Shown: in pieces, positions 20,390-63,147 of the stretch
Numbering within the stretch: the stretch's first letter is position 1
How the letters are laid out: each line of letters opens with the position of its first letter
DNA from: Octopus sinensis
Taxonomy: Eukaryota
DNA: 64,000 nucleotides
Direction of reading: 5' to 3'
Assembly: GCF_006345805.1 (NCBI RefSeq)
Contig: NC_043000.1
Location: 102,486,001-102,550,000, forward strand
Translations under genes and position numbers: made by a program
The notes under the pieces: generated by a model
Database searches by the model: none
What the model was told of the DNA's origin: nothing
What the model saw: only the letters and a program-made list of their open reading frames with translations

Positions 20390-21618
20390 GTCTCTTTACT
20401 GGCCACACAGGGCTGCACACAGATGGGACAAATTTTGTGGGATGAAAAAAAACAAAAAACAAAAGAAACAAAAAAAAGTGGCGTAGGTTTTCGATCAAAA
20501 GGGATCGTAAAAGGGGAAAAAGAAAAAAAAAGAAAAGAAAAGAAAGAAAAAAAAGGAATAAAAGGAAAAGAAAAGAAAAAGAAGAGGAAAAAGGGGAGAG
20601 AAAAAAACGATCAATAGGGATCGTGTATCACAGTGTCATGATGTACGGTGTAAAGGGGAGCAGATAAGGTTTATCCGTGGGAAGAAAAGCCTACGAAAAA
20701 GACCACGGTAACCTCGGTCAATATTGTTATATGTTGCCGCATTTGATTGCAAGTGGGTAACCCTCTGTTTTCAATTTCTGGGTTCATAGGACTATGCTCA
20801 AGGTGGCTTCGTCATTCATACGTGCCATCCTTGCTACATTCACCCATCTTTTTTTTAAACGTTCGCTAGACAAAACTTGCCTCTCTACTCTCACTTTCCT
20901 TTTCAAGTGGTACTTGAAGAAGTTGATGAGAGGTTGACCGGAGAGGAAAGTGTTTGTCTCCAATCCTTTCAGATGCGTCCACCAGATACATTCTTTCGCC
21001 ATAGCCACAAGGATGATGAAAATAGTTCTTCCTTCCCGTTTGAAGGAAGGAGGCGTGACAATATTGACGATAGACTCAGCTGATAAACCGACTCGTCCCA
21101 CACGTGACAGCAGTTGTTCGACATAAGGCCACAGGTCGGAAATTGTTGGACACTGCACGAGTGCGTGCAGAACGGTTTCGTCGCTCTGACCGCATCTCGG
21201 GCAGGTCGGCTCCGTGTTTCTCGAGCCGTGTCTGTAGAGCTTATCCCGAACGGGTAGCGCTTCTCGGTAGCACTGCCAGGCCAGGGATCTCTGGAAGTTG
21301 TCCATGAGCCATGGCCCGAAAGTCGTCCCGAACAGGCGGGTCAGGTATTCCTCGTCAACGTCCAGGTTCGCCCCGAGCTCGTCGTCGTACCTCCCCTCCA
21401 CTAATCCCCTATAGAATGCTTTGGTTGTGATGGAGTCACTCAAGGTCGACCCAGGACGGCAGAGTTGCTTGAGAGCAACGCGACACTCGCGGTGCCATTC
21501 GCCCTTCCTCGGCCTCTTTCTGATCTACGACTGCAGTTCGGTCATGGAGACGAGCTGCGGGAAAGCGTGCCTCACAAACGGCGACCACACCTGTTCACCT
21601 TCGTCTACGAAGAGCCGT
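20390..21618 (-). mobile_element. Tx1/L1-clade LINE, 5'-truncated copy 1 (ORF2 C-terminus 20784-21443 plus 3' UTR)
   Basis: zf-RVT-like region SLAWQCYREALPVRDKLYRHG..TCPRCGQSDETVLHALVQCP. The 3' end abuts (TATC)n on the element strand. Confidence 0.8.
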
Positions 21619-29289: not shown

Positions 29290-29349
<60 letters not shown>

Positions 29350-29357
29350 TATATATA

Positions 29358-31368
29358 TCTGCAACTCTCCCATGAAAAGGAAAGAGCAGACAAAGAAGCC
29401 TGGGCTATAGACAACATAAAATCTAACCCCAGAGCTTTCTACAGGTATGCCAAAGAAACAGCTACGGTGCACTGTAGGTTATGGCCACTCCTTGAAAAGG
29501 ATGGCACACTCACAGGAAATCCAATGAGGGTAAGTGAAATACTAAATGAGCAATTCAAGAGTGTTTTCACTCCACCCCTTGGGCATTTTCAAATCAGCAA
29601 TCCAATTGACTTCTTTACCACTGCAGATATAGAAACAGAGGCAGCGATGATTGATTACATCAATATAAAGGAAGACGATGTAATAAAGGCTATAGATGAA
29701 ATGAAAACAAACTCAGCTACTGGCCCCGATGGATTCCCGGCAATCCTTCTAAAAGTATGTAAGAGAGTCCTAGTAAGACCACTGCAGTTCCTCTTTCAGA
29801 GCTTCCTTGCAATTGGCAAACTTACAAGAAAACTGAAGGAAGGTAAAATATGCCCTATTCATAAAGGAGGTAGCAGAGCGGAGGCCAAGAACTACAGACC
29901 TATCTCTCTGACCTCATACATCGGCAAGGTCATGGAACGAATAGTCAGAAGGAAACTAATCACCTTCCTTGAAGAAAATGACTTGCTGCCTCACACCCAA
30001 CATGGTTTCCGACCAGGAAGAAGCTGCTTAACTCAGCTCCTACAACACTATGACTGGGTGCTGAAACGACTGCTCAACCACTCAAATGTGGAAGTGATAT
30101 ATCTCGACTTTGCAAAGGCCATTGATAAAGTCGATCATGGAATGATATGTCACAAACTGCGTGATCTTGGCATAGTTGGAAAGTTGAAAGAATGGTTTCA
30201 TGACTTTCTGAAGGATAGAAGTCAGGTGGTAGTAGCCAATATCTTGTCTGTGTTTCTCCTCCAGTATCGTTTAACAGTAGGTATCGGTTTGTCTACTTCC
30301 ATTAACACGCAAATAGTGAGCGGTGTTCCGCAGGGCAGTGTTTTGGGACCACTACTGTTCATAATGGCCCTCTCAGACATGTCCTCAGCCACGTAGAGAG
30401 CCACGATCACAAGTTATGCAGATGATACAAAAGTTTCACAGGCAATACAGAACCCTGAAGACACTAAGCACCTGCAATGTGAGCTGGACAAAATATACAA
30501 GTGGGCTGAAAAGAATAGCATGCAGTTCAATGCTGAAAAGTTTCAAGCTTTATGCTATCAGCATGCAAAACTAAATGCAATACCCAATGAATACACTGGA
30601 CCTAGAGGGATTGCAATCCCAGAGGCACAATCAGTGCGTGACCTGGGTATTTACATGAGTGATGACACAACCTTTCATGTACATGTTGCTAAATTGGCAA
30701 TGAAATGTAGACGGCTGGCCGGATGGATTCTTAGAACCTTTAGAACAAGAGACCAAGAAACCATGATGGTCCTCTGGAGGACACTTGTCCTAGGCCACTT
30801 TGACTATTGCTCTCAGCTATGGTCACCATCCAGTGTCAAGTTGATCACAGAACTTGAGGCGATCAACGAAGCTACACGAAGAAGATAGCCTCTGTGCGGC
30901 ATGTAAGCTACTGGAAAAGACTCAAGAGATTAAAACTCTATTCCTTGGAGCGTAGGCGAGAAAGAAATACCGTAATATACATCTGGAAGATCCTGGAAGG
31001 ACTTGTCCCAAACTTTGGCATCGAGAGTTACACAAATGCCAGAACTGGGCGCCACTGCGTGGTGCCAAGGACACCAAATTTGCCATCAAGATGTAGGACA
31101 AGATACTGTGATAGCCTGGGCTTCAGAGGCCCACAGCGCTTCAATATCCTCCCGAAGAACCTGAGGGACCTGCATGGGGTGGATGCGGATGTCTTTAAAG
31201 TAGGACTGGATCTCTTCCTGTCAGGTGTTCTGGATGAACCAACTTCACGGCAGGAGGTGGAGATGGGGGCAGCTGCATCGAACTCTCTCATGCACCAAAT
31301 GGCAGTTGCTAAAAAGCATTCGTGAAGTAAAATGTTAATATAGATATTTAAATAAAATAAAATATGAA

Positions 31369-45529: not shown

Positions 45530-48065
45530 TGCAGTAGTAGTAGTAGTAGTAGTAGTAGTAGGAATATATATTCGGCACCAGGTGTTGACGTGGCTGCGTA
45601 TATATTATTACAAGAGTTCATATAGAGATGAAGAATAAATTCAAGAACAATATATTTACTATATAAAAATATTTTTTATTTACTGGTCGATGATGATACA
45701 TAATCAAAATGTAGAATCTAGTTGAATGAAGTAATCTATGCAAGGAAGTTCAGAGACAGGAAATATAGAAATAACAGCGAAGTGGTGGCTTTCAGTCATG
45801 TAGCATAGAGAAATAGTCGGACATAGCAATGACGTAAATGACTCAAAGTCTAATTGCTAAGCTTCTTGAATAATCAATAATCACGTCTCATAATACAGAT
45901 GCTTCGAGAAACTTAGAAAGGGAGGTTACTCTATAATCCTTTTTTGCAAGGGAGATCATTCAACTATTTAGCTACATAGACCACTACACACACCCTAGGC
46001 AGAGTAACGTTATACTATAATGAAAATAACAAAAATATATACATCATGAAATGTCAAACTATAGAAACAATATCACAGTTCAAATGTAATAAATGTTTGT
46101 TAAATTCTTGGGCCAAATCACACGTCTACTGCTTTTAGTAGTCATAGTTTATGAAGTTGTGTGTAAAGGACGCATTTGTAATGCTGTGGGTGTGTTGTCT
46201 GTTGTGGGGTTGGAAATAGTATTTTCAATATGAGCCCTTTTTAGTCTGTCAACATAAATAGTGCCTTTACGACCGTTAAGGCCTAAGGTGAAAAGCTTAT
46301 CTGTACAAGAAAGCACATGAAAGGGTCCTCAATACGATACTGTTAAAGGGTGTTTAATGGCATCGTTGTGAACAAAAACATGAGTCCAGGAAGAATAGTC
46401 TTTAGGCAAATATATTTTAATGTCTTGTTTTCTGGTGATCATATGTGGTAACTTTGACATATAATCACGCAAGCGTTCAACGAAATTTGTCGTGTCGATC
46501 TCTTGCGTGTTTGCAGGAACAATCATCAGACCAGGCAGCGTCAAGGAAAATCCATAAAGTAATTCTGCAGGAGAATATCCAAAATCCTCTTTGATAGCGG
46601 AGACCCAAGAGAACAACAGGAAGAAATTCAAACCATTGAGATGAATCAGCAGAAGCACACAACGCAGCTATCTTTCGATCATACCGTTCGAAGCTGGGTT
46701 GTAACTAGTGGAATGCATGTGTTTACTTCCTAAAATCTTGGTTAGTTCCTGGAAAAGTTTAGCTTCAAATTTACGTCCGTGGTCTGTTTTTATTTTTACA
46801 GGTGTTCCGAAACGCGAGATCCATCCTGTGACTAAAGCTTGTGCCACAGTTAGAGAAGAGATGTCTGTGAGTGGAATGACTCCTGGCCAGCGGGGAAAAC
46901 GATCAATACAGGTTAATAAAAACGTGTAGCCCTGACTTGCAGGCCAAGGTCCTACTATATATGTATGTGCTGGAATCGTGCATTTGGTGTTGAAAAAGTA
47001 TCTAACGGTGCACGAATATGTTTATGTACATTGGATCTTTGACAATAGACACAGGTACGGGTCCAATTAGCTATGTCTCGACGCATGTTCGGCTAAACTA
47101 AACGAGCTGAAATAAGCTTCAATGTTGCTGTTATACCAGGATGTGAATTATTGTGTAGTGCTGAGAAAACGATACGCGATGATTTTCAGGAACTAAAGGG
47201 CGAAGTTTACCAGAAGAAAAATCCCAAAGGATCTGTTTGTTTGATGTCGCAACTGGGAAATATTGGAGGTCGAAAGGACTTAATTCTGGTTGTTGTATAT
47301 TATTCAAATCAACGGATGATTGATCTTCCGGCATTTCGTCCAAGTTAATTTCTGCGGTTGAAAATAACGCGTTTACATGTAAACGGGATAAAGAATCTGC
47401 TACAATGTTCTCGGAACCTGGAATATATTGTATATCACTTGTGAATTGTGAAACGTAATCCAAATGTCGAATGTCTCTCGGAGAAAACGTATCTGGCTTG
47501 CGAAAGCGAAAGATAACGGCTCATAGTCCATAAATATTGTGAAGTTTCTCCCTTCCAAAATGTGTTGGAAGTGTTTAACTGAGAGGTAAATAGCTAACAG
47601 TTCACGACTGAACGTGCTATATTTAGTTTCAGCTGGTTTTAACTGCTTAGAGAAAAACGCCAGGGGTTGCCATTCGCCATAGTGGATTTGTTGAATGACT
47701 GCGCCGACGCCAATTTCGGACGCGTCGACTACAAAAATTAGGAATGGGGTGAGTTAACATGGAAACACGAGAGAGTTTCTGTTTAACATCGTCGAAAGCT
47801 TGTATTTCAGCGGGAGTTAAAGTGATCTTTTCTCTACTCTTCTTGCGGTGTTGCAGTAATTTGTTGAGAAGGTATAGTTTCAGCACAATGAAGTATAAAA
47901 CGTCGATAGAAATTAGCTAATTCAAGAGAAATGCAATGCTTCTTGAATAATTAAGAATCACATCTCATGGTGCAGATGCTTCGAGAAACTTAGTAAAGGG
48001 AAGTTACTCTATAATCCTTTTTGCATGGGAGATCATTCAACTATTTAGCTACAGAGACCACTACA
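45530..48065 (-). mobile_element. Ty3/Gypsy LTR retrotransposon, internally deleted (RNase H + integrase)
   Basis: LTR 45530-45988 and partial LTR about 47938-48065, both ending ..gaccactaca, with a TGTG TSD. RNase H VDASEIGVGAV..PLAFFSKQL..YSTFSRELLAIY. Integrase LLTCIDRFPRW..WISRFGTP..TDHG..YNPASNGMIER. Confidence 0.9.
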
Positions 48066-57944: not shown

Positions 57945-58425
57945 TTTTTACTCTTTTTACTTGTTTCAGACATTTGACTGCGGCCATGGTGGAGCACCGT
58001 CTTTAATCGAAGAAATTGGCCCTAGGACTTATTCTTTGTAAGCCTAGTACTTATTTTATCGGTCTCTTTTACCGAACCGCTAAGTTACGGGGACGTAAAC
58101 ACACCAGCGTCGGTTGTCAAGCGATGTTGGGAAGCAAACACAGACACACCACACACACACACACAATATATATATATATATATATATATATTTATCTATA
58201 TATATATATATATGATATATAATATATATAATATATATTATATATATATACACACATATATGACGGGCTTCTTTCAGTTTGCGTCTACCAAATCCACTCA
58301 CAAGGGCTTTGGTTGGCCCGAACCTATAGTAGAAAACACTTGCCCAAGGTGCCACGCAGTGGGACTGAACCCGGAACCATGTGGTTGGTAAGCAAGCAAC
58401 TTACCACACAGTCACTCCTGCGCCT
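57945..58425 (-). mobile_element. SINE family B, full length
   Basis: Reverse complement of the 18606-19010 type, with an internal TA/CA tract. Confidence 0.85.
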
Positions 58426-59291
58426 ATATATGTAATTTAAGACTCCAATTAGCGAATCGTAATGAATACGTTTCTCACTATGTTGTAAATGTGACTTTTA
58501 GGAAGAACTGGTGTCAAATATTCAATTAGTTCACAATATCTGAAATATTTCAGAAATATCTGGTTCTACTTCAGTTGTCTACAAATCATCAGTTATGCCA
58601 TGGCTTCAAAAGCTGTTTTATCAATTGTTTGGTGCTTCTGAAATATCTACTCTATACTGAGCGAACAGTTCTATGGTCAAAAGTAATCCAGCTGTAAAAA
58701 CCTTTTCTCGTTCGAGGCACAGTGTGTTCATAAGTTAAAAAAATACAAAGATCTCGGAAAAATCTGACTAACTCTTTCTAACAGGTCGATGTTTAATTTT
58801 GAAAATAGATACGTTGGATTTGGAATAAATATATGCTTCCGGCGCTATAACTAACTTTTACCCAGCTCGCCAGCGATATGCAACACCAGTGATTTGTTAA
58901 TCACAGTTTTTTCTGTATCAGTTAAAGCGAAATCTGTCTAAACATGTGGTTGCCTGTGTATGCTTGCTACTGATAACGCGCAAAGATACAGAGATCCGAA
59001 TTTAGCAATTCAATAGAAGCTGCTGGACGTTTTTCATCTGTTACTGATATTTCTGTGAAACTGAACAGATGCGTGCTGGATCTGTTCAGATTCACTCACA
59101 GATTTTTAATTACTTTTTTTTTAACTAAACAGATTGAAACTTTGTATACTGGTGTAATTTCTCACGCTGAACACGGTTTACTCTCAACATTTTCGACAAA
59201 ATTTCGTATTTTAGAAGTTAGTTCGTGTTGAAGTTGTCGTATTCGTGTTAAAGTTGTCGTGTGACTGTGTGTGTGTGTGGTGTGTGTGTGT

Positions 59292-60495: not shown

Positions 60496-60584
<89 letters not shown>

Positions 60585-60667
60585 GGTCCGGGTTGATTCG
60601 GGGTTAACCACAGTAAATAAGGTACTCAATACATAGCAGAGTAAAATTAATTTATTATATAGAAGGA

Positions 60668-60716
60668 GCTTCTACAGGACTAGAACTGTTTCATTCAAGA
60701 GAAATCTTCAGGAAGC
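60668..60716 (-). ncRNA. Type I hammerhead ribozyme-like motif (minus copy)
   Basis: GCTTC-CTGAAGA-TTTC-TCTT-GAAT-GAAA-CAG-TTCTAGTC-CTG-TA-GAAGC. Confidence 0.7.
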
Positions 60717-60719
60717 AAT

Positions 60720-60766
60720 CTTCCTGAAGATTTCTCTTGAATGAAACAGTTCTAGTCCTGTAGAAG
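60720..60766 (+). ncRNA. Type I hammerhead ribozyme-like motif (plus copy)
   Basis: CTTC-CTGAAGA-TTTC-TCTT-GAAT-GAAA-CAG-loop-CTG-TA-GAAG, with predicted cleavage after A60762 (GUA). Confidence 0.7.
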
Positions 60767-60885
60767 CTCCTTCTATATAATAAATTAATATATATATATA
60801 TATATATATGTATGTATATATATATATATATGTGTGTGTATGAATATATAATGTGTGTGTGTGTGTATATAATGTGTGTGTGTGA

Positions 60886-60928
60886 CAGAGACTTCGAAGT
60901 TTCTCCTGAGATCACCTTCGTCAGACTG
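60886..60928 (-). ncRNA. HHR-like motif with weak stem II
   Basis: cagt-CTGACGA-aggtgatctcagga-GAAA-CTT-CG-AAG-TC-tctg. Palindromic stem III ACTTCGAAGT and a GUC triplet. Confidence 0.45.
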
Positions 60929-61064
60929 AATTCTTTAGTCTTGGATACTTCTTAAAAGCTTGGATCCGTTGAATGTTTGTTTCTCAAGTTACTGTTTGAA
61001 CAACTTTATAACTGCACATGGAATATACGCATAGATACACACACATACATGCATGCATACACGC

Positions 61065-61114
<50 letters not shown>

Positions 61115-61116
<2 letters not shown>

Positions 61117-61275
61117 CAGGAGTGGTTGTGTGGTAAGTAGCTTGCTTACGAACCACATGGTTCCGAGTTCAGTCCCAAAGCATGGCACCTTGGGCAAGTG
61201 TCTTCTACTATAGCCTCGGGCTGACCAAAGCCTTGTGAGTGGATTTGGTAGACGGAAACTGAAAGAAGCCCGTCG

Positions 61276-61325
<50 letters not shown>

Positions 61326-61510
61326 TTTGTGTGTCTGTGTTAGTCCTACCCACCCCCCACATCACTTGACAACCGATGTTGGTGTGTTTACGTCCCTGTA
61401 TTCTATCGGCAAAATAAACTGATAGAATAAGTACTAAGCTTACAAAGAATAAGTCCTGGGGTCAACTTGTTCGCCTAAAGACGGTGTTCCAGCATAGCCT
61501 GAAACAAATA
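61115..61510 (+). mobile_element. SINE family B
   Basis: Same head, core and tail as 18606-19010. Confidence 0.85.
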
Positions 61511-61532
61511 AAATAATATATATATATATATA

Positions 61533-62745
61533 TATTGGATTGGCAACATTTTCGCCATATTTTGCGAAGACAAGAAAGCTACTGAGGTTCACAAAGAGAT
61601 ATGTGAAGTTTATGGTGTTGATTGCTTAACAGAACGTACATATCAGAAATGGTTTTAAAAGTTCCGCTCTGGAGATTTTTCACTCAAAGGTAACCAACGT
61701 TCTTGCCGACCTATTGAAGTTGAAGTTGACCGAATCAAAGCCATAATTGAATCTAATTGTCATATAACTGTGCGAGAGATTCAAAGAGGATGAATATATC
61801 ACAGACAGCAACTGAAAATCGCTGAAAATATCTTGGACTAATTAAGAAGCTCGATTCTTAGATTCCACAGAAATTGAAAGAAAGGATCTTTTCGGTTTGA
61901 ACGGCAGTTTTTTAAAATAATTTCCACGTAACTAAACACTTTTAAACTTCGTATACTGGTAGAATGTGTTTATAAAACATCTTTTTCTTTTGGCTTTATT
62001 GAGAAAATTCTATAGTTTGTAAAATATTTGTTGGTTTTTTTCTTCAATTTCTGCAATTTCAACCAATCAATGACGTCTATTGAGGTGAAAGCATTCTGTG
62101 CCGTATTAATATGTCCCTCGTTTAAGAAACAGATTGGGTTTATTTACATTTGTGAAGAAAAAAAGATACCCTCCCCTCCACCCCTAAACCTAACCCTAAC
62201 CCTAACTAACACTAAGTCTAAAACAGATTGAAATGCAATAGATCGATACTAGGGTCATAATTATGGGTGACAATTTCATATGACACCGCTAGAAAAAACT
62301 GCCGTTCAAACCGAAAAGACCCGAAAGAAATTCACTTAACACAACGAATCAATATTTGCAATAGGCATCTCATACACAATGAAATCGACCTTTTTTTTTT
62401 TAAACGAATCATCACTGGTGATGAAAAATGGATTGTCTACAATAACATCAATTGAAAACAATCATGGTCCAAGCCTAAAGAACCAGCACAAACCACATCG
62501 AAAGCTGAATTGCACCAAAAAAAAAAAAGGCCATGCTGTTAATCTGGTGAGATTACAAAGGTGTTGTGTATTTTCAGATTCTTCCAAGGAACCAAACGAT
62601 CAATTCAGATGTTTACTATCAACGACTAATGAAACTGGAGGAAGCAATCATAGAAGAACGGCTAGAATTGGCAAATCGTAAAGGAATCGTGTTCCACCAT
62701 GACAACGCTAGACCACACACATCTTTGCTAACTCGTGAAAAATTA
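61533..62745 (+). mobile_element. mariner transposon, decayed and interrupted by a MITE
   Basis: TA + ttggattggcaac TIR-like start, ICEVYG..QKWF..FRSGDFSL, IPQKLKEIHLTQRINIC, KRIITGDEKWIVYNN and GIVFHHDNARPHTS. Confidence 0.85.
61884..62322. mobile_element. MITE with about 30-bp TIRs (GG...CC) and 8-bp TSD (Merlin- or Mutator-like)
   Basis: TIR GG(A/G)TCTTTTCGGTTTGAACGGCAGTTTTTT at both ends, and TSD GAAAGAAA at 61876-61883 and 62323-62330. Confidence 0.9.
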
Positions 62746-63147
62746 TTTAGGTATTTATTCAGTATTCAGTATAAGTGAGACCTATGGAAATGCCACGTTT
62801 TATAAATATTCTTGTTTCTGTTTTGGTGCATAAATTTATAGATGTTCATAATATTGCTTCACTGTGTGAACGATTGCGATTATAGCGTCGATGTCGATCC
62901 ATAGTCAAGCTTGTTTAAAGCATACTCCTCAGAATTGTTTCATAATACAAAAAATTTCGATTATGCCTTCGATATCGTTCCATAGTTTAGACTTACAAAC
63001 TTGACGTAGGAAGTCGTCGTTACAAAACAGAATAAATACGATAGATATTACGATACAAACATAGTTACCGATGCACAATGTTTCTGAGTCATCTGTTATT
63101 TATTATCTCAGCGGTGGTGTTATGTTGTTTTAGATTTATTAAACAAT

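What the first reader, a model, noticed from the sequence alone, without database searches (positions are those of the whole stretch)
60582..60789. Perfect 70-bp hairpin encoding a hammerhead ribozyme on each strand, embedded in (AT)n
Seen: exact inverted repeat (60646-60715 / 60720-60789, loop CAAT). Each arm holds a full type I HHR layout: stem I (G)CUUC/GAAG(C), CUGAAGA, stem II UUC/GAA closed by a U-U, GAAA, stem III ACAG/CUGU with an 8-nt loop, and a GUA site. One arm extends 64 nt further. Known: PLEs carry HHRs in their pseudo-LTRs and often insert as an inverted terminal copy plus a tailed copy. Inference: this is a very young, non-coding, ribozyme-only mini-PLE. Transcription from either side gives an RNA that can either self-cleave or fold into 70-bp dsRNA, which could be an ADAR or Dicer substrate.
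Basis: partly seen in the sequence, partly recalled or inferred. Interest (0 to 1): 0.8.

Follow-up and report, generated by a model that had tools for sequence, protein, structure and literature searches.

The report
Jumping-gene stubs that silence their ribozyme
This 208-base hairpin is one of about 650 similar stubs of a young Penelope-like jumping gene, each likely made when two copying enzymes ran off the capped start of the same kind of uncut RNA and were joined head to head, which would show how these poorly understood elements insert.

Summary
The perfect 70-bp inverted repeat and the hammerhead (HHR) layout are real. The hairpin is the end piece of a young, previously unlisted Hydra-clade Penelope-like element (PLE) with an RT plus GIY-YIG ORF, inserted in (TA)n. 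It is not a one-off and probably not a self-spreading mini-element: 648 head-to-head joints sit at the HHR 5' edge, against 12 a little further upstream. That edge lies 29 nt below a TATA box in the parent, and arms often carry one extra G there, the mark of a copied cap. Every hairpin checked (15 of 15) has one long (+137) and one short (about +68) outer end; a second Hydra family does much the same. Best reading: two reverse transcriptases prime on opposite target strands at two internal sites of capped, uncleaved RNA, run off at +1 and are joined. No pile-up of ends at the ribozyme cut site was found. In either reading direction the antisense arm is made first, so self-cleavage here is unlikely; family RNA shows A>G changes. 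Cleavage, start site and editing at this locus are untested.

The parts
60496..60581 (.). Left (TA)n target run
   Evidence: family ends abut (TA)n
60582..60645 (-). Unpaired 64-nt tail of the long arm (about +73 to +137 of the parent); in full-length copies it runs on into the ORF start
60646..60716 (-). Paired part of the long arm (+2 to +72 of the parent)
60668..60716 (-). Type I hammerhead motif, 5-bp stem I, core at 60705-60711, predicted cut between 60673 and 60672
   Evidence: sequence; activity untested
60717..60719 (+). Filler at the head-to-head joint; with the next 4 nt it repeats the 7-mer at 60703-60709 (locally templated)
   Evidence: sequence; similar fillers
60720..60789 (+). 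Short arm (+3 to about +72 of the parent), ending at the family's tail-less end
60720..60766 (+). Type I hammerhead motif, 4-bp stem I, core at 60724-60730, predicted cut between 60762 and 60763
   Evidence: sequence; activity untested
60788..60831 (.). Right (TA)n target run

Best explanation
The hairpin is a promoterless end fragment of a young Hydra-clade Penelope-like element, one of about 650 such stubs, and it likely formed when two element-encoded reverse transcriptases primed on opposite strands of a cut (TA)n target, copied capped, uncleaved element RNA from two internal sites to its 5' end, and the two short cDNAs were joined head to head. Steps. Shown: parent family and ORF; two fixed outer ends (+137 and about +68), one of each per insertion; pile-up of inner ends at +1, the outer edge of HHR stem I; TATA box 29 nt above +1; frequent single extra G; no pile-up at the cut site. 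Inferred: +1 is the transcription start and the G is the copied cap; the two ends are reverse-transcription start sites used together by a protein dimer; joining uses the self-complementary AGCT or short templated fillers (host end-joining; recalled as typical of polymerase theta). Inferred, weaker (about 0.4): long copies, which mostly run on upstream of +1, come from a continuous template (ribozyme-cut and ligated circle, or read-through RNA). Consequence, predicted: the stub cannot transcribe itself; read-through from either side makes the antisense arm first, so the RNA forms 70-bp dsRNA that blocks the ribozyme and is an ADAR substrate.
For: Parent: copies run upstream into a 3' UTR and an RT/GIY-YIG ORF; in full-length copies the same HHR-tail precedes the ORF. 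Hot spot: 648 joints with 0-30 nt spacer; 44 with 31-60 nt, of which only 12 hold real upstream sequence (hand count); of the first 30 exact core matches 6 stop at +1, 24 run on at least 40 nt, none end between. Paired ends: 15 of 15 hairpins, 8 of 8 head-to-head pairs in the unbiased set, second family 15 of 15 with one longer and one shorter arm. Two cDNAs: in 4 of 15 the short arm reaches further 5' than the long arm, which a single fold-back cannot give; several joints have the extra G on both arms. Cap: base before A+1 is G in 37 of 45 arms that reach it in filler-bearing joints, followed by a variable base (hand count), and in 6 of 6 rows with a TA-rich neighbour; the genomic base is T. 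Extra 5' G marks the cap in L1 and SVA (PMC11702581, PMC4859970, passages). Uncleaved template: about 6 of about 27 true 5' ends within 20 nt fall at the cut site, 1-2 of 100 rows end there. In vitro a PLE cuts both strands, starts at two internal sites that define the tail, and uses unprocessed RNA (PMC11167929). A>G changes in RNA-like runs.
Against: No 5'-end RNA data: only assembled contigs were served, which cannot show starts. About half of the 77 G rows can be read as partner-arm sequence. This locus itself lacks A+1 and the extra G. No ORF-bearing copy starts at +1 with a G (0 of 21), so the linear capped RNA does not explain long copies. In the second family my prediction (ends inside the core, from the nearer TATA-like box) failed: arms reach about 10-15 nt above stem I's start, are more scattered, show no clear G, and the pattern could not see longer joints. 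Here both start sites are TA-like and could pair with the target, unlike the non-homologous sites reported for the anole element. No intact ORF of this family was among the loci held.
Confidence: 0.65

Rival explanations
1. The cDNAs stop at +1 because of structure, not because the RNA ends there: the HHR helix or a cDNA snap-back at the mirror image of stem I ends synthesis, and the extra G is copied from the fold-back.
For: +1 is exactly the outer edge of the 6-bp stem I; the common GG-containing joint class (9 of 50) fits a 2-3 nt fold-back extension.
Against: Fold-back predicts GG; 23 of 37 G-bearing arms have a single G. Stem I is weak (pairing probability about 0.2 in context). TATA spacing of 29 nt would be chance. 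Tandem arrays pass +1 up to 7 times without stopping.
Confidence: 0.13
2. The edge is a 3' splice site (the parent reads TAG before the stem), and stubs copy a spliced RNA with a tiny first exon, as the Penelope intron ends at helix I in Drosophila virilis.
For: AG preceded by a pyrimidine-rich stretch; intron end maps to helix I in D. virilis (PMC4209133).
Against: No constant exon sequence above the edge in 100 rows or 44 joints; no splice joint in contigs (weak).
Confidence: 0.07
3. A self-propagating non-autonomous mini-PLE: the 208-bp hairpin is itself transcribed and copied.
For: Hundreds of near-identical short copies; 16 of 50 listed share one perfect joint.
Against: At least 15 different joints among 50 and many unique fillers; both HHR subfamily variants recur in hairpins and long copies alike; no TATA box; the perfect joint follows from the AGCT self-complement. 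Shared rare joints seen were adjacent duplications.
Confidence: 0.07
4. One cDNA, started at the tail, folds back at its own end and is extended on itself to the TA-rich +68 site.
For: Arms are identical; either mechanism gives a perfect hairpin.
Against: 4 of 15 hairpins have the short arm reaching further 5'; G on both arms; the +68 end also ends ORF-bearing arms that are longer than their tailed partner (L053, L069).
Confidence: 0.06
5. Fold-back artefact of long-read assembly.
For: Perfect palindrome in a microsatellite; the assembly has many small indels.
Against: Flanks on the two sides differ; joints sit at one element position genome-wide; the same joint appears in short-read contigs of other runs (25 contigs in X15, also X5, X6).
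Confidence: 0.02

Closest known systems
Hydra-clade Penelope-like elements (Craig et al. 2021, PMC8557442)
   Same: RW[K/R], DKT, CxCX5C linker, CxxC and CxH in the C-terminal nuclease, (TA)n target, HHR in the pLTR with U-U-closed stem II and ACAG/CUGU-A stem III as in several tabulated members; inverted 5'-truncated copies are described as common.
   Different: Unit is 5-5.8 kb because of a microsatellite-rich 3' UTR (most members are under 3 kb); tail about 68 nt rather than 30-40; loop III 8 nt with a central palindrome; HHR unlike Hydra-1_oBim's; the massive class of +1 stubs and the TATA-type start are not mentioned in the parts read.
Poseidon element of the green anole, in vitro (Frangieh et al. 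2024, PMC11167929)
   Same: Both strands cut and extended, two internal start sites that bound the tail, unprocessed RNA as template, AT-rich target.
   Different: That work is in vitro and does not show the two sites used together in one insertion; its start sites are not homologous to the target, here both are TA-like; here the HHR lies wholly upstream of the ORF.
Twin priming of LINE-1 and cap-derived 5' G (PMC4859970, PMC11702581, passages)
   Same: Two primers on opposite strands giving an inversion; extra G at complete 5' ends.
   Different: In L1 the second primer lands at variable internal places and copies different RNA stretches; here both sites are fixed and copy the same 70 nt, giving a perfect hairpin.
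Retroviral minus-strand strong-stop DNA (recalled)
   Same: Synthesis starts near the 5' end and runs off the cap; some products jump to another template position (L118, L121, L125, L130, L286, L289).
   Different: Target-primed, no tRNA, two start sites, product integrates; transfer to the 3' repeat is not shown.
Non-LTR retrozymes (Cervera and de la Pena; bioRxiv 10.64898/2026.07.22.740005)
   Same: Non-coding, type I HHR, PLE-derived. Two arrays of this family (L288, 247-bp units; L296, 420-bp units) fit the definition.
   Different: The window element is head-to-head, has no direct tandem HHRs and no promoter.

Membership tests
Type I hammerhead ribozyme | Core CUGANGA, GAAA, NUH around three helices | tested here: met
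   layout matches tabulated Hydra HHRs
Type I hammerhead ribozyme | Match to an Rfam hammerhead model | tested here: not met
   no hammerhead family among 40 and 4 listed matches
Type I hammerhead ribozyme | Structure-level conservation | tested here: inconclusive
   shared variants (10 or more of about 270 copies) at 5 of 51 positions, all in N7 or loops; six shared haplotypes, 209 of 235 ungapped copies, identical stems; no compensatory pair
Type I hammerhead ribozyme | Self-cleavage after GUA | not testable with these tools
   no genomic pile-up of ends at the site
Hydra-clade PLE (parent) | Single ORF, RT then C-terminal GIY-YIG nuclease | tested here: met
   YRDD and VY..YIG motifs in natural frames of 652 and 688 aa; 1297 homologues, best carrying PF01541 (GIY-YIG, name recalled) and one PF00078; direct Pfam scan gave no relevant hit
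Hydra-clade PLE (parent) | RWK, DKT, CxCX5C linker, CxxC and CxH | tested here: met
   RWR, DKT, CNCPDKTTC, CDLC, CMH (definitions)
Hydra-clade PLE (parent) | HHR in pseudo-LTR, tail, (TA)n insertion, tandem and inverted forms | tested here: met
Hydra-clade PLE (parent) | Generally short (under 3 kb; a tendency, not a strict criterion) | tested here: not met
   HHR-to-HHR 4.9-5.8 kb in 5 copies
Hydra-clade PLE (parent) | Placement in the Hydra clade on an RT tree | not tested
   no named reference proteins were held
Non-LTR retrozyme | Two or more direct tandem units each with an HHR | tested here: not met
   window element is inverted; met only by L288 and L296
MITE or fold-back DNA transposon | Inverted repeats at both termini of a uniform unit | tested here: not met
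   arms unequal, ends coincide with PLE ends, joints vary
microRNA precursor | Rfam match at gathering score | tested here: not met
   best 65.8 bits against 100 needed, driven by pairing alone

The most novel reading that the evidence does not exclude
Hydra-type Penelope elements integrate by obligate paired priming at two fixed RNA sites and use two RNA states: capped uncut RNA yields hundreds of 'strong-stop' hairpins that lock their own ribozyme in dsRNA and feed A-to-I editing, while ribozyme-made circles yield the long, promoter-bearing copies and retrozyme-like arrays. The stubs would be a genome-wide fossil record of the missing step in PLE transposition and of how retrozymes are born.
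Probability: 0.35. Interest if true: 0.8.

Novelty: new variant of a known kind. Interest (0 to 1): 0.6.

Why it matters
How PLEs form inverted and tandem insertions, how they regain their promoter, and what their hammerheads do are stated open questions (PMC8557442, PMC2377424, PMC11167929). This family supplies hundreds of in vivo products with fixed ends that map a likely start site to the base, show the two start sites used one per strand, and argue that uncut RNA is copied. That gives exact predictions for a cell-free assay. It also means a large animal genome is seeded with about 650 perfect 70-bp hairpins, a ready source of dsRNA for ADAR or small-RNA pathways. The single locus has no sign of host function.

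Tried and rejected
Rfam scans found no hammerhead, only microRNA models scoring the perfect stem. Pfam did not name the parent ORF. Tests for ends at the ribozyme cut site were negative; one copy (L077) ends exactly there and may be chance. Sequencing-run search: no RNA holder listed on record, 14 holders guessed as RNA, contigs only; no starts, joints or strand. No host exon was recognised in the window: 5 of 107 long frames hit Pfam, all transposon domains; short exons would be missed. Earlier findings of the scan: three look-ups, nothing. Obligatory stop-and-jump for all copies was considered: it predicts some ORF-bearing copies starting at +1, and 0 of 21 do (2 start at +9 and +14). An empty target site at this locus was not sought. 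Literature searches: Penelope+pLTR+strong-stop 0 papers; Penelope+retrotransposon+extra G+cap 0; Penelope-like+twin priming 3, none on PLE mechanism by listing.

Full report
Observation. The inverted repeat, the two hammerhead (HHR) layouts, the 64-nt extension and the (TA)n flanks are as described. Rfam's hammerhead models do not pick the motif up, but it fits the Hydra-clade HHRs tabulated by Craig et al., most of which have U on both sides of stem II and several the same stem III and cut triplet (PMC8557442 supplement).

Parent. The long arm matches at least 40 places at 99-100% (40 of 283 candidates scored); an exact 28-nt core word occurs 2476 times in the 2.72-Gb genome, 0 for the reversed control. 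Ten longer copies led upstream through a microsatellite-rich region to a reverse transcriptase fragment; 20 stretches around ORF matches gave natural frames up to 688 aa and HHR-to-HHR units of 4.9-5.8 kb. In full-length copies the HHR and tail also stand just before the ORF. The protein has the Hydra-clade marks and 1297 homologues at about 40-50% identity. No complete intact frame was among the loci held. The host is an animal; a cephalopod is likely from genome make-up and from Hydra elements being listed for Octopus (inference; not tested). I number from the A that begins stem I in the parent (+1).

The stub is a class. Head-to-head joints with 0-30 nt between fixed anchors number 648 (some may be duplicate contigs). 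With 31-60 nt there are 44, and by hand 12 contain true upstream sequence while 32 end at +1 with short fillers copied from nearby. Among the first 30 exact core matches, 6 stop at +1, 24 run well upstream, none stop between. All 15 hairpins fetched have one outer end near +137-141 and one near +67-71; so do 8 of 8 head-to-head pairs in the unbiased set. One locus of the G-selected set (L160) has two long arms. In 4 of 15 the short arm reaches further 5' than the long one, which excludes a single self-primed cDNA for those.

Why +1. The parent has TATAAA starting 29 nt above +1. Where an arm reaches A+1 the genomic base before it is T, but stubs mostly show G: 77 G, 14 C, 9 A in the first 100 of 394 matches of a pattern that leaves out T and perfect palindromes (hand count; 22, 6, 2 by script for the 30 fetched). 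About half of these G's could belong to the partner arm. The cleaner sets are 6 of 6 rows with a TA-rich neighbour and 37 of 45 arms in filler-bearing joints, 23 of them with a single G (hand counts). A short-read contig of run X15 also shows one G at a +62 to +1 joint. An extra 5' G is read as the copied cap in L1 and SVA. This locus's arms start at +2 and +3 with a 3-nt filler that extends a local 7-nt repeat.

The ribozyme in the template was uncut. Both arms run through the cut site. Of the first 100 of 1005 matches enriched for truncation, about 27 are true 5' ends within 20 nt of the site and about 6 lie at it, near the even share and ambiguous through TA overlap. Of the first 100 of 399 matches for 3' breaks, 1-2 lie at it. 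This agrees with the in vitro finding that unprocessed RNA is the main substrate and that two internal start sites bound the tail. The motif is nonetheless under constraint in the source copies: shared variants fall only on N7, loop II and loop III (loci were gathered by several patterns, so this is not a random sample). Loop III has a central palindrome and the co-fold of two copies pairs through it, as expected for dimer-type PLE HHRs, whose activity in vitro is low.

Long copies. All 52 matches to the tail-ORF junction were examined. Of 21 that run on into the ORF, 15 continue upstream of +1, 6 end at +9 to +128, none at +1 with G. Fifteen matches belong to two inverted arrays of identical-junction units: L288 (-34 to +218, 247 bp, 8 and 5 HHR-region pieces on the two arms) and L296 (-133 to +292); each has one short and one long outer end and keeps the TATA box. 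These point to a circular or multimeric template on which +1 is passed, as proposed by Cervera and de la Pena, and look like newborn retrozymes. Most of the rest are short pieces, several with the +1 end joined to the first 450 nt of another template (L118, L121, L125, L130, L286, L289). Circle versus read-through RNA cannot be told apart here.

Second family. A protein search found another Hydra family, 41% identical, with a different HHR in the same place. It has at least 202 short head-to-head joints near the HHR, and 15 of 15 fetched have one longer and one shorter arm, mostly +142 and +72 from the core. The inner ends are more scattered, reach 10-15 nt above the core, and show no clear G; my first prediction for their position failed and the pattern could not see joints over 36 nt. 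Support for generality is therefore partial.

What the stub does. It lacks the TATA box. On either strand the antisense arm is transcribed first, and the duplex (-117 kcal/mol) dwarfs the HHR fold (-7.3; about 2% of the ensemble even for the isolated parent motif), so cleavage at this locus is unlikely. At family level, A>G at +37 (the UAG in loop III) makes up 18.5 of 212, 117 of 558 and 10.9 of 159 depth units in three runs guessed to be RNA, against 291 of 2.5 million in a large DNA-like run and 0 of 273 genomic copies; run X5 has A>G at 11 places, the DNA-like run at none. An A>G form around the cut site seen in two RNA-like runs has 0 genomic matches. This fits A-to-I editing, but the runs are contigs from other individuals or species, their kind is a guess, and nothing ties them to this locus. 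The window shows only transposon domains.

Against artefact: different flanks on the two sides, one joint position genome-wide, and the joint in short-read contigs (25 in X15).

Papers seen: PMC4209133 parts 1-2 of 4; PMC11167929 parts 1-2 of 4; PMC8557442 passages, section 11, a supplement search and part 2 of 59 of the supplement file (the consensus sequences there were not read, so identity with a listed family is excluded only by the HHR table); PMC2377424, PMC11702581, PMC4859970 passages; bioRxiv 10.64898/2026.07.22.740005 part 1 of 5 and passages (supplements not seen). Searches that found no account of run-off hairpins or paired priming in PLEs; older subscription papers on Penelope structure are outside the library and may discuss it. 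Retroviral strong-stop DNA, polymerase-theta fillers and the ADAR preference for UAG are recalled.

Verdict. Real feature; a new Hydra-clade family and an abundant by-product class that exposes the insertion mechanism. New variant of a known kind, interest 0.6.

Noticed in passing
window 60885-60930, minus strand: A second hammerhead-like core with a palindromic stem III but poor stems I and II, ending on the (CA)n/(TG)n run; possibly the decayed end of another PLE family. No match in the other loci held.
   Followed up: partly
L288 (G000:C16:42874000-42878500) and L296 (G000:C9:87419800-87423200): Inverted tandem arrays of 247-bp and 420-bp units (TATA box, HHR, tail, ORF start) with identical junctions and one short and one long outer end: retrozyme-like arrays apparently made in one event.
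   Followed up: partly
L244-L264, L268-L282: Second Hydra-clade family with open 727-aa frames, a minimal HHR, at least 202 short hairpins, and a tail stem (TACTC/GAGTA-like) resembling that of the first family.
   Followed up: partly
L077 (G000:C1:1599688): A copy ends exactly at the predicted cut site and is joined to an upstream part of a second copy; a possible jump onto a cleaved RNA end, single case.
   Followed up: partly
joints: A recurring T in place of A at +1, often after G, only in short copies; possibly misreading of the cap-adjacent base.
   Followed up: no
window 61103-61232 and 58305-58434: SINE-like repeat in two inverted copies, 88% complementary, 2.7 kb apart, with further matching parts at 58000-58075 and 61406-61481.
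   Followed up: no
window 20787-21524, 29344-30393, 46671-47753, 62551-62775: Fragments of other transposons: zf-RVT, RVT_1, integrase and RNase H, and a mariner-type transposase domain.
   Followed up: no
L128, L129, L134: Copies whose 3' ends lie inside the ORF (+695, +762, +1167) next to (TA)n, yet extend upstream of +1: minor start sites on a continuous template.
   Followed up: no
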